From Pseudomonadota bacterium (GTDB taxonomy: Bacteria > UBA10199 > 2-02-FULL-44-16 > JBDRGF01): a stretch of 59,024 nt of DNA. Numbering within the stretch: position 1 is the first letter of the stretch; each line of letters opens with the position of its first letter. The stretch covers positions 1 to 59,024 of the forward strand of contig JBDRGF010000101.1 in the NCBI GenBank assembly GCA_043818055.1, in the 5' to 3' direction. The position numbers were made by a program. This document shows, piece after piece, positions 42,001 to 45,000 of this stretch.

Positions 42001-45000
42001 GCGACAGTTTCTGGGGAAGAGAGAAGGAAAAGCAGAAGTTAAAGAAAGACATTCTCAACTCCCAAAATGTCGTCATCTATTCAAAACGAAGAATGGGGAA
42101 GACCTCTTTGGTCAAGGAGGTACTGAACAATTTACCAAAGGGAAAATTTGTAACATCATATCTGGATCTGTATCCATCCAATTCAATTGAAGATTTTATA
42201 AGCTGTTATGCTAATTCCGTAACTCAGGCAATAGTCGGCCCCTTCGACAAAATTATTCTTGAAATTAAATCCCTTTTTAAATCTTTTACTCCTTCTTTCA
42301 CCGTGAATGACGATGGAAAGCCGATGTTTAACCTTGATTTCGGACGTGAGACAAAAGAAAACATCCTGCTGGATGAGGTTATAGAAGCATTTCCAGAGCA
42401 TTGCAGAAAAAGGGATAAACAAGGCGTCTTTGTCATCGACGAATTTCAACAGATTGGAATTTACGATAAAGATCATAAACTAGAAGCTCTGCTCAGGAGT
42501 CACTTTCAGACCCATCGCGATGTTGCTTATATATTTCTAGGCAGTAAGAAACATCTTTTGACTGACATCTTCTCCATGCCAAACCGGCCATTCTATCATA
42601 GCACCAAAATGTTTCCTCTTGGAGAAATCGAATATCAAACCACACTAAATTGTGTAATGGATAGATTTAAAAAAACCGGATGTAAAATAAATCAAGAACA
42701 TGCTGAACATTTAATTAAAATTTCTAAAAATCATCCTTATTATACTCAGCGTTTAGCACACACGGTGTGGAACTTGCTTGTTGAAAGAGATAAGACTGTG
42801 AACGATAAAATCATCGATGATGCTTTCATTGAAATCAAGAGGGAGAGCAGTGATTATTTCCGTTCTCTCTGCGAGCTATTGACATCTCATCAGCTGAAAG
42901 CTCTTAAAACGGCCGCGCACATTGAAGAGAACGATAAAATCTTTTCGAAAGATTTTTTGTCAAAACATAACTGGCAAAAGGATTCCCTAAAACAGGTTCT
43001 CGATACACTTGTTGAAAAAGACATGCTAAGTCGTGAAGAACATACATATATGATTGATGACATCTTTTTCCATAAGTGGCTTTTGGAGAATTGATTTCAA
43101 GTTGTTTATTTCACATCGCAAGACTGCTATTTTCTTTCGGCTACCGCGTTTCTCAACAATTGACGATATTATATTTTCTGCTTCCAAGCCCGATCTCTTC
43201 GGCATAGACAAGCTGTAGAAGTGAGTCGATCTCGGGGTGAGCCTCTTTGAATACATCTTTTTTTGCGGACTTACAGACGAGATCGTAGCTCGCCTGATCG
43301 ATAGCAACCGGATCGGTACCTGCCAATATTCCGATATCTTCTGTCAGAGTCGCCTCGTCCTTCGCAAGACAATCGCAGTTTGCCGTGATGTGGTTGATGA
43401 AGTTAAAATAGACGACTCGTTTTTCTTTCACTGCGCCAAACGCGTATTCGACCAGCCGCTCCTGAACCGCGCTCGCCGAAGCATTCCAGTTGATGCTGAG
43501 CGCCCCCGTCGAACAATGCGCCACACACTCACCACAGCCTATACATTTATCAGGATCGAGCGATATGCCAGCGTCCAAAAGGGTAAGCGACTTTGCAGGG
43601 CATCCGTCGATACACTTGCCACAACTGCAGCATTTTTCCTGATCGACTGAGGGAAATGCACCTGAATGCATCTCATATTTACCGACCTTTGAGCCGCATC
43701 CCATCCCAAGATTCTTCACAGCGCCGCCAAAACCGGTTAGCAGATGCCCCTTGAAATGAGAGAGAACGATCATCACATCGGACTCGGCTATCGATGTCGC
43801 TATCTTGACCGTATGAAAATGTTTTTTATCGATCTCAATACGCCTGTGGTCATCACCATATAGCCCATCCCCGATGATAACAGGCGCATTGATCTTCTGT
43901 TCGACAAAGCCGTGCCCGGCTGCAAGCATCAGATGTGTCACCGCGTTATCCCGCCTCCCACGATAGATGGTGTTGGTATCGGTTAAAAATGGAAGGGCTT
44001 TATATTTTTTACAGGCGCTGATAAATGGACGCACCAATTCAGGCCTGATATACCCCTTATTCCCCTCCTCCCCAAAATGAAGCTTGATGGGAAGCAACTC
44101 TCCCTTTTGAAGTTTCAAAAGCGGCATAACCCTATCGATCAGCTCCGAGAGGCGTTTATTTTCGTTCCATTTTAAAAATATGAGTTCTGACATGGGCTCA
44201 CTGATTTTTCGAATTAGTCAGTTAAATTCGGCTTTTATCTCTGCGCGACGATTTCTTGCCTGTCGCTTGACAACCATATCAATTGAAATAGGTTTTGTCG
44301 ATCCGTAATATTTCACTTCGATAATCGATTCGTCGATGCCATATTCGACAAGGTGTTTTTTTGTATACAGCGCTCTTCTCTTTGATAATTCGTCATTATA
44401 TCGTGAGTCACCCCACAGATCGGCATGGCCTTCGACGATAATCTTTTTAGCTGATTTTAATTTATCAATCGCTGTCAAGAGCGATGGTCTCTCTTTTGCA
44501 GAAATATAATATCTGTCAAACCTAAAATAAATTGTCACTATTATTGCATTTTCTTCGCTATCTCTATTTTGGATGTTTTCGCTCATAAATAATTTTTTCT
44601 TTTCAATCTTCGCAGTATAATTCAATCCTGCAAATACACCAAACTCCGGAATAGCGCTTCCGCTTGAAATTCCCCAGCTTCCACCAGTTTTTAATTTCAA
44701 ACCTTTTTCCATCTGCCATGATAGCCCGGCGCGAAGTTCAGCGGGCGTTGAATTAGAATCACTAAACATCTTTTTGAAAGGAGTTCTTACGTCAACCTCA
44801 AGCAATGCCCAAAATTTCCTGAATATTTTCGCCTCAACCCCTCCTGCGATTTTCATCTGGTTGTCAAATTCGATGTTGTTTGTTGAAACTCCGTCACGAA
44901 ATATTCCCCCCAAATTAAACGTTGTTTTCAGCCTATTTCCCACATTTTTATCGATGCTCAATATCAATGCCCCTGTCGGCTTTTCATCGCCCAAGAAATG

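What a model noticed while it worked through the whole genome (the two positions that open the first line are those of the whole stretch)
43153..44193. DUF362-ferredoxin proteins are the likely nickel-pincer cofactor users in a genome with larBCE but no larA
The genome has the nickel-pincer biosynthesis genes larB, larE (C8) and larC (C156) but no LarA, aldo-keto reductase or ornithine cyclodeaminase family gene. Its two DUF362 proteins with 2[4Fe-4S] domains (here and C125:22034-23179) have the LarA fold and keep the cofactor residues at LarA spacing, and in the phylum DUF362 occurs only where the lar pathway is present. DUF362 is thus a candidate large family of nickel-pincer oxidoreductases wired to a ferredoxin.
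Evidence so far: LarA 0 of 22 in the order, 3 of 93 in the phylum. DUF362 in 25 of 93; 24 of these have LarC, 24 LarE, all 25 at least one; 0 of the 48 genomes without either has DUF362. Model pLDDT 93.7; top folds are LarA-family structures (Foldseek E 5.6e-8; VIA Z 17.7, rmsd 3.2, 216 residues). Invariant D72, H150, K160, H176 in 47 of 47 homologues of g01656 and D81, H144, K154, H169 in 15 of 15 of g01902 match LarA D72, H174, K184, H200 (PMC7583248, passages, call 193) in the +10 and +16/+15 spacing. Domain-wide shares are alike: DUF362 0.257/0.376, LarC 0.228/0.353 of bacteria/archaea. No AKR or OCD row in the tables.
(Added by a program. Inside this text positions count along the whole contig: contig position 1 is position 1 of the stretch shown here. 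"Call 12" and the like, gene names such as g00115 and contig names such as C1 are that model's own, and its searches are not shown. The text may have been shortened before it was handed on; [...] marks where a part breaks off. The agent that wrote the report below was given it as the finding of a first reader that could run no searches.)

Follow-up and report, generated by a model that had tools for sequence, protein, structure and literature searches.

The report
LarA-like DUF362-ferredoxin, likely nickel-pincer enzyme
This uncharacterised iron-sulfur protein is a distant relative of lactate racemase that keeps the residues anchoring its nickel-pincer cofactor and occurs with the genes that make, or appear to import, that cofactor, so it is a strong but untested candidate for a large new family of nickel enzymes.

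Summary
Real gene: DUF362 with an inserted 2[4Fe-4S] ferredoxin. The genome has larB, larE and a full larC, two DUF362 genes, and no LarA, AKR or OCD hit. The model has the LarA N-domain fold (Z 17.4). Profile alignment puts H150/K160/H176 on LarA H174/K184/H200. DUF362 tracks full-length LarC (22 of 22; 131 of 133; 24 of 24). In one Bacilli phylum, however, 37 of 40 DUF362 genomes lack LarC. Known LarA enzymes are orphaned there too (16 of 18). Both families sit beside the same ECF S-component and nucleoside kinase, which also neighbour NphT-like AKRs and larC: a candidate pincer salvage route. That link is weakest for this protein's own subfamily. Best reading: a pincer-tethering, one-way hydride-transfer enzyme reoxidised through its ferredoxin. 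Binding about 0.8, full mechanism about 0.58, substrate unknown. Not found in the papers searched. The scan noted the DUF362 idea at least 8 times on other DNA, and an ECF salvage idea once.

The parts
43153..44193 (-). DUF362 gene with internal ferredoxin (346 aa; here 'type A'); last gene of a minus-strand run of unrelated surface-protein genes
44083..44085 (-). K37, end of strand 1 (KxH; KPN in the paralogue); kept in all three subfamilies; lies where LarA has I69-D72
43978..43980 (-). D72 (Asp or Glu); end of strand 2; aligns to LarA A104, not to D72
43744..43746 (-). H150 = LarA H174 (catalytic base)
43714..43716 (-). K160 = LarA K184 (thioamide tether)
   Evidence: 193 of 193
43666..43668 (-). 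H176 = LarA H200 (nickel ligand)
   Evidence: 192 of 193
43513..43632 (-). 2[4Fe-4S] ferredoxin insertion (C188-C198, C217-C227), starting 12 residues after H176
43369..43377 (-). C273-D274-C275 loop, absent from LarA and from the C125-type paralogues; possible extra metal or redox site

Best explanation
The protein is a nickel-pincer nucleotide (NPN) dependent oxidoreductase built from the cofactor-binding N-terminal domain of LarA plus an inserted ferredoxin. Step 1 (genes shown, activity inferred): LarB, LarE and LarC, encoded elsewhere in the genome, make the cofactor. Step 2 (residues shown by alignment, binding inferred, about 0.8): K160 tethers it and H176 binds the nickel. Step 3 (inferred): H150 is the only retained base, and H108 and the LarA C-domain are missing, so a hydride moves one way between an alcohol or 2-hydroxy-acid type substrate and the pincer ring instead of being returned as in racemisation. 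Step 4 (inferred): the cofactor is recycled one electron at a time through the two [4Fe-4S] clusters inserted right after the nickel ligand, perhaps helped by the CxC loop. The substrate is unknown. Relatives in genomes without larBCE probably import a pincer riboside through an ECF S-component and phosphorylate it (inferred, about 0.5).
For: Fold: the five best VIA rows are LarA-family, Z 15.4-17.4, next row a ferredoxin at 10.6. The aligned part of 7s91 (34-265) is the domain that PMC11851776 (passages) calls NPN-binding. Residues: hhalign E 7e-6, ungapped over 135-180, gives H150=H174, K160=K184, H176=H200, with LarA numbering checked against 5HUQ. These are among the 7 positions kept at 96% or more in all three DUF362 subfamilies. 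Co-occurrence: own phylum 22 of 22 DUF362 genomes have the Ni-inserting LarC1 half, and 0 of the 49 without it have DUF362. Phylum of G115: 131 both, 13 neither, 2 DUF362 only, 5 LarC only. Class of G090: 24 of 24. 41 of 50 distant genomes with a type A gene have LarC. larE overlaps a type A gene in L138. Shared cassette: kinase or ECF-S within about 4 kb of 15 of 40 DUF362 loci and within 1.5 kb of 7 of 19 LarA loci in the Bacilli phylum. Present in 30 of 37 LarC-negative DUF362 genomes, 14 of 16 LarC-negative LarA genomes and 5 of 201 genomes with neither; 17 of 27 against 5 of 201 without the training genomes. In metagenomes, of 41 ECF-S clusters 23 have the kinase, 4 DUF362 and 5 an AKR nearby. 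One of these AKRs keeps NphT H144 and K200.
Against: There is no binding or activity data. LarA D72, R75, H108 and K298 have no aligned equivalent, and the profile match is weak overall (probability 84%; 12% for the paralogue type). The same residues are kept in LarC-negative genomes, so they do not by themselves report pincer use. For this subfamily (type A) the salvage link is thin: 6 Bacilli genomes have it without LarC, none has the kinase, none has the cassette beside the gene, and 4 have only a more distant ECF-S. 8 of 50 distant type A genomes show neither LarC nor LarE, completeness not given. B. thetaiotaomicron has DUF362 without LarC or LarE. lar genes lie within 8 kb in only 2 of 80 distant loci, about what chance gives, and no neighbour points to a substrate. 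No LarA, LarB, LarC or LarE was found near the 41 metagenomic ECF-S clusters. Genomes are kin and share an anaerobic lifestyle. In the papers I read, no NPN enzyme passes electrons to an Fe-S cluster.
Confidence: 0.58

Rival explanations
1. DUF362 holds no pincer. Its conserved His, Lys, Cys and acidic residues bind a plain metal, an extra Fe-S cluster or another nucleotide, and it co-occurs with larC because both belong to anaerobic, nickel-using lifestyles.
For: Type A keeps many possible metal ligands (H39, E42, H146, H150, H176, C273, C275). It lacks LarA D72, R75 and H108. 37 of 40 DUF362 genomes in the phylum of G112 lack LarC. Six type A genomes there have neither LarC nor the kinase.
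Against: The tether Lys and nickel His are invariant across subfamilies that share little else. LarA is equally orphaned in that phylum (16 of 18), including proteins with the full LarA motif in genomes without larB or larE. DUF362 and LarA share the ECF-S/kinase neighbours. Aerobic controls (S. elongatus, H. volcanii) have both DUF362 and LarC.
Confidence: 0.16
2. DUF362 binds the pincer but serves the cofactor rather than a substrate: a carrier, store or redox-repair protein that reoxidises over-reduced NPN through its ferredoxin.
For: It lacks the substrate-binding C-domain. It is usually a lone gene with no metabolic neighbours. It is present in almost every LarC-positive genome of two groups, also beside LarA. 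It sits in operons with the putative uptake genes.
Against: A covalent-tether Lys suits a catalyst better than a carrier (inference). There are up to 19 matches per genome against a single LarC. 7 of 9 LarA genomes without DUF362 still have the cassette. M. jannaschii and C. glutamicum have LarC without DUF362. NPN is made in vitro by LarB, LarE and LarC alone (PMC13524815). Several genomes, this one included, would be left without a client.
Confidence: 0.14
3. DUF362 is an NPN enzyme doing redox-neutral chemistry (dismutation or isomerisation, as NphT and LarA do), and the ferredoxin is structural or only activates it.
For: The LarA and NphT reactions are net redox-neutral (PMC13524815). A subfamily without ferredoxin keeps all core residues (24 sequences).
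Against: A 2[4Fe-4S] domain was gained at two different places (internal in type A, C-terminal in type B). Its cysteines are invariant or nearly so. One of the two LarA bases is missing.
Confidence: 0.12

Closest known systems
LarA lactate racemase superfamily (Pfam Lar_N PF09861, clan CL0471; PDB 5HUQ, 6C1W, 9EIA, 7S91, 4NAR)
   Same: Fold of the N-terminal NPN-binding domain; H174, K184 and H200 equivalents at identical spacing; larBCE in the genome.
   Different: No C-terminal domain or K298; no aligned D72, R75 or H108; a ferredoxin inserted after the nickel His; a CxC loop; extra conserved lysines K37, K148, K172.
Single-histidine LarA homologues (PDB 9Q3J, 9Q3K; PMC12611868, passages)
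   Same: LarA fold with one catalytic His, for which non-racemase chemistry has been proposed.
   Different: Those keep the H108 equivalent and both domains; DUF362 keeps the H174 equivalent, one domain and a ferredoxin.
NphT, NPMN-dependent aldo-keto reductase (PDB 9YEB; PMC13524815)
   Same: A Lys tether plus a nickel His, and intermolecular hydride transfer; found in genomes with larBCE but no larA. AKRs with its His, in some cases also its Lys, share the ECF-S/kinase neighbourhood with DUF362.
   Different: TIM barrel, unrelated fold. Dismutation, with no Fe-S cluster described for NphT. No AKR hit in this genome.
Vitamin salvage by an ECF S-component plus a nucleoside kinase (general knowledge, recalled)
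   Same: PF12822 S-component next to, or fused with, a kinase whose solved relatives include uridine kinase and nicotinamide riboside kinase (E 7e-13).
   Different: The substrate is unassigned: sources give mixed automatic names. No NPN salvage was found in the paper searches. The cassette is absent from this genome, which has larBCE.

Membership tests
DUF362 (PF04015) | Score above the Pfam cut-off | tested here: met
   155.6 bits against 24
LarA racemase/epimerase family | N-terminal NPN-binding domain fold | tested here: met
   VIA Z 17.4, rmsd 3.3, 215 residues; Foldseek E 1e-7
LarA racemase/epimerase family | Tether Lys184, nickel His200 and base His174 | tested here: met
   K160, H176, H150
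LarA racemase/epimerase family | Second base His108 | tested here: not met
   No His in the aligned stretch of type A or type B; the region is aligned with low confidence
LarA racemase/epimerase family | Asp72 and Arg75 after strand 1 | tested here: inconclusive
   Strand 1 ends in KxH/KPN and D72 sits on strand 2; the register is uncertain by a few residues and no coordinates were available
LarA racemase/epimerase family | C-terminal substrate-binding domain with Lys298; Lar_N score above cut-off | tested here: not met
   346 aa including the ferredoxin; no Lar_N hit; my LarA profile matches residues 136-188 only
Nickel-pincer-dependent enzymes (LarA, NphT, NPAD-OCD) | larB, larC and larE in the genome | tested here: met
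Nickel-pincer-dependent enzymes (LarA, NphT, NPAD-OCD) | Family occurs only with a cofactor supply | tested here: inconclusive
   Holds in three groups; 37 of 40 lack LarC in a fourth, 30 of these with a candidate salvage gene
Nickel-pincer-dependent enzymes (LarA, NphT, NPAD-OCD) | Bound cofactor (+450 Da, nickel) and NPN-dependent activity | not testable with these tools
   Needs protein work
ECF plus kinase vitamin salvage | S-component linked to a nucleoside kinase | tested here: met
   Kinase within 7 kb in 23 of 41 clusters, fused in L354
ECF plus kinase vitamin salvage | The substrate is a pincer riboside or precursor | not testable with these tools
   Inferred from neighbours only

The most novel reading that the evidence does not exclude
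DUF362 is the main, overlooked client family of the nickel-pincer cofactor: dehydrogenases in which the nickel pincer turns hydride transfer into single-electron flow to ferredoxin, a job usually given to flavins. The cofactor is also a traded vitamin: small-genome bacteria without larBCE import a pincer riboside through a dedicated ECF S-component and phosphorylate it with a nicotinamide-riboside-kinase-like enzyme to feed DUF362, LarA and AKR clients.
Probability: 0.35. Interest if true: 0.92.

Novelty: new variant of a known kind. Interest (0 to 1): 0.76.

Why it matters
PMC13524815 notes that hundreds of prokaryotes make the cofactor without LarA and counts only 12 known nickel enzymes. 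DUF362 tracks full-length LarC closely in three sampled groups and reaches 19 matches per genome, so it could explain much of that gap. The test is direct: a published loading assay reads out as +450 Da, and K160 is the predicted tether. A ferredoxin-linked pincer would extend NPN chemistry beyond redox-neutral reactions. The ECF-S/kinase cassette would be a salvage route for the cofactor, which I did not find described, and would make NPN a shared nutrient in gut and sediment communities.

Tried and rejected
D72=D72: rejected as a numbering coincidence. Operon evidence in this genome: none; the window neighbours are unrelated, and larC and larE-larB lie on other contigs. Substrate from neighbours: 80 distant loci gave no recurring partner. 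A panB link (6 loci) was dropped because a ketopantoate-reductase-like gene, judged from its N-terminal motif only, lies beside panB in L146. A 2-oxoacid:ferredoxin oxidoreductase directly downstream was seen in G004 only. Sequence search of the PDB gave only ferredoxins among the 60 rows shown of 288. Long homologues (14 scanned) showed no fusion to a Lar protein. The search for longer forms found nothing, but it also missed known long forms, so it is uninformative. Folding the C125 paralogue from a single sequence failed (pLDDT 39), so its fold rests on profile alignment to type A (probability 99.9). A Bacteroidota test failed: the phylum of G115 is not plausibly Bacteroidota despite the record title, so B. 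thetaiotaomicron-type genes were not tested. The kinase tree is the quick tree with a weak backbone; it only shows that DUF362-adjacent kinases fall in several groups. ESM Atlas returned only DUF362 clusters. No complex prediction and no read mapping were run. Paper searches that found no DUF362-pincer or pincer-salvage proposal in listings.

Full report
Observation. The ORF at 43153-44193(-) encodes 346 aa: Pfam DUF362 (E 2e-45) with a 2[4Fe-4S] ferredoxin inserted at residues 188-227. The window neighbours are unrelated and no lar gene is in the window. The genome (93.6% complete) has a second DUF362 with a C-terminal ferredoxin on C125, full-length larC on C156 and adjacent larE-larB on C8. 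It gave no hit for Lar_N, ornithine cyclodeaminase or an AKR profile that I built from six AKR-ferredoxin proteins. Absence in an incomplete genome is not proof.

Structure and residues. AF2 on a 99-sequence alignment gave pLDDT 94.2. The 14 listed Foldseek rows below E 1e-4 are all LarA-family. VIA gives Z 15.4-17.4 for five LarA-family chains, then ferredoxins at 10.6 and lower; the best match covers residues 34-265 of 7s91, the N-terminal domain. PMC11851776 (passages) calls this the NPN-binding domain. I built a 22-sequence LarA alignment whose first row has the same numbering as 5HUQ and aligned it to 133 DUF362 representatives. Residues 135-180 align without gaps and with top confidence: H150=H174, K160=K184, H176=H200. 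PMC7583248 (passages) names R75, K184 and H200 as cofactor-binding and D72, H108, H174 and K298 as catalytic. H108 and the C-domain have no counterpart. Among 199 distinct sequences from my loci, 193 fell into three types (A internal ferredoxin 116, B C-terminal ferredoxin 53, N no ferredoxin 24; 6 left untyped). Only G165, K160, H150, K148, K37, H176 and K172 are kept at 96% or more in all three. So the protein keeps the anchor of the pincer, not the racemase apparatus, and has extra lysines that could replace R75 and K298 (inference).

Co-occurrence. Own phylum, 73 genomes at least 85% complete: DUF362 in 22, a LarC match in 36. Twelve of those 36 match only the C-terminal part; PMC13510736 (passages) places nickel insertion in the N-terminal LarC1 domain. 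All 22 DUF362 genomes are among the 24 with LarC1. The other two are G037, which has a LarA-like gene, and G061, with no client found. Phylum of G115, 151 genomes: 131 both, 13 neither, 5 LarC only, 2 DUF362 only, with up to 19 DUF362 matches per genome. Class of G090, 26 genomes: 24 both, 1 neither, 1 with LarC and a LarA-like gene. I searched the genomes of 50 of 80 distant type A loci: 41 have LarC, one more has LarE, and 8 show neither (completeness not given). lar genes lie within 8 kb in 2 of the 80 loci; one is larE overlapping the DUF362 start. Kin are not independent, so these counts overstate.

The counter-case and its control. In the phylum of G112 (record titled Bacilli; 250 scored genomes, at least 95% complete asked for) DUF362 occurs in 40 and LarC in 5 of 249; only 3 have both. 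The 40 proteins fetched, of 48 listed matches, keep H150 (40), K160 (40) and H176 (39). Alone this would count against pincer use. The control changes the reading: Lar_N occurs in 18 genomes of the same sample, 16 without LarC. These include proteins close to L. plantarum LarA with the whole motif (E 3e-136). Five such genomes tested also lack larE and larB above cut-off. Known pincer enzymes are therefore orphaned in this lineage as often as DUF362.

A shared cassette. Clustering the neighbours showed two families beside both orphan DUF362 and orphan LarA genes. One is an ECF S-component (PF12822). The other is a P-loop kinase related to uridine and nicotinamide riboside kinases. One or both lie within about 4 kb of 15 of 40 DUF362 loci and within 1.5 kb of 7 of 19 LarA loci. 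Profiles of the two families each hit 33 genomes (the kinase search scored 13 candidates per genome, so it is a floor). At least one is present in 30 of 37 LarC-negative DUF362 genomes, 14 of 16 LarC-negative LarA genomes and 5 of 201 genomes with neither client. Leaving out the 22 genomes used to build the profiles gives 17 of 27 against 5 of 201. In metagenomes, 80 loci chosen by S-component similarity fell into 41 clusters: kinase nearby in 23 (fused in L354), DUF362 in 4, an AKR in 5, and LarA, B, C or E in none. The AKR in L404 aligns to NphT (9YEB) with H144 and K200 kept (PMC13524815); others keep only the His. L260 reads DUF362-ECF-S-AKR-kinase, L409 AKR-DUF362-ECF-S-kinase, and G547 has larC-AKR-kinase. 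The simplest reading is uptake and phosphorylation of a pincer riboside for three interchangeable clients. That supports DUF362 as a client without using larBCE counts. Limits: the substrate is unassigned, adjacency was seen for types B and N only, and six type A genomes in that phylum have neither LarC nor the kinase, four of them a more distant S-component. This genome has larBCE and no cassette.

Mechanism. Shown: fold, residues, gene content and associations. Inferred: NPN is tethered at K160 with H176 on nickel (about 0.8). With one base and no second domain the enzyme moves a hydride one way. The ferredoxin begins 12 residues after the nickel ligand and recycles the cofactor. A ferredoxin was gained at two different places in types A and B, which fits a redox role, but type N has none. 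No neighbour suggests a substrate. Whole mechanism 0.58; rivals: no pincer 0.16, cofactor carrier or repair 0.14, redox-neutral pincer enzyme 0.12.

Literature. 'DUF362' hits 14 papers in the listing, most for unrelated longer names. PMC11770544 (passages and section 4) uses it only as outgroup from clan CL0471. PMC7955657 (passages) mentions the nested ferredoxin. For PMC13524815 I read parts 1-4 of 10; DUF362 and PF04015 were absent from supplements 1-10 as held, files 1 and 2 being cut. Files 11 and 12 were not searched, and the main supplementary PDF and several large tables cannot be read; they may list DUF362 among larC neighbours. The NPAD-cyclodeaminase paper is not in the library and I did not see it. 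PMC8305020 (passages) lists larBCE in H. volcanii as an open issue. PMC12611868 and PMC13082051 were seen as passages. Searches for pincer salvage found nothing relevant in listings. Earlier scan notes propose DUF362 as a pincer user on eight other genomes, and an ECF-S plus PRTase salvage module beside LarA on one (seen after my analysis). They are leads, not support.

Verdict. A real, well-supported but untested candidate. It works like a LarA-type pincer enzyme, but it is not a member of the LarA racemase family. New variant of a known kind; interest 0.76.

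Noticed in passing
L073:6141-8494, L074:7467-8662, L061, L062, L065 (own phylum): 12 of 36 LarC-positive genomes match only the C-terminal part of LarC, mostly a stand-alone LarC2 of about 150 aa; in these five loci it lies next to larB. 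None of the 12 has DUF362. Either decay after loss of the client or a nickel-free use of LarB and LarC2.
   Followed up: partly
L260:4229-7353; L409:3679-8139; L345; L354; L387: Operons joining DUF362, ECF S-component, AKR-ferredoxin and kinase; an ECF-S/kinase fusion in L354.
   Followed up: yes
L404:2647-3927, L403:5781-6782, L344, L397, L424: AKRs, most with a C-terminal 4Fe-4S motif, keep the NphT nickel His; L403 and L404 also keep the Lys. A second candidate pincer-plus-ferredoxin architecture.
   Followed up: partly
L266:1480-2751, L268, L269, L271: Canonical LarA genes with the full motif in genomes with no larB, larC or larE hit.
   Followed up: partly
L446:6625-7371 (G439); L424:6962-7963 (G547): A LarC1-only gene without larB or larE beside it in a genome with the ECF-S; a second, shortened larC leading AKR and kinase. 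They could re-insert nickel into salvaged cofactor (speculative).
   Followed up: no
P0155, P0166, P0168, P0182: DUF362-ferredoxin fused behind a short N-terminal domain that resembles the DnaA lid (recalled, no Pfam hit) and a long low-complexity linker.
   Followed up: no
L068:11285-15923 (G004): Type A DUF362 directly upstream of genes that look like a 2-oxoacid:ferredoxin oxidoreductase (judged from N-terminal motifs).
   Followed up: no
G061, G136, G152, G182, G217, G237, G324, G427 (L444-L453): Full or near-full larC with no DUF362 found; no client was evident near larC by eye. LarA was tested only for G061, G324 and G427.
   Followed up: partly
L142 (G115): The record is titled Pedobacter, but 133 of 151 genomes of its phylum have DUF362 and 136 have LarC; the title may be wrong.
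   Followed up: no
window 35760-37913(+); 38339-39577(+); 46561-50817(-): A GT4 glycosyltransferase with a C-terminal P-loop-like domain, a VKOR-DsbA fusion, and a 1418-aa Ig-repeat surface protein.
   Followed up: no
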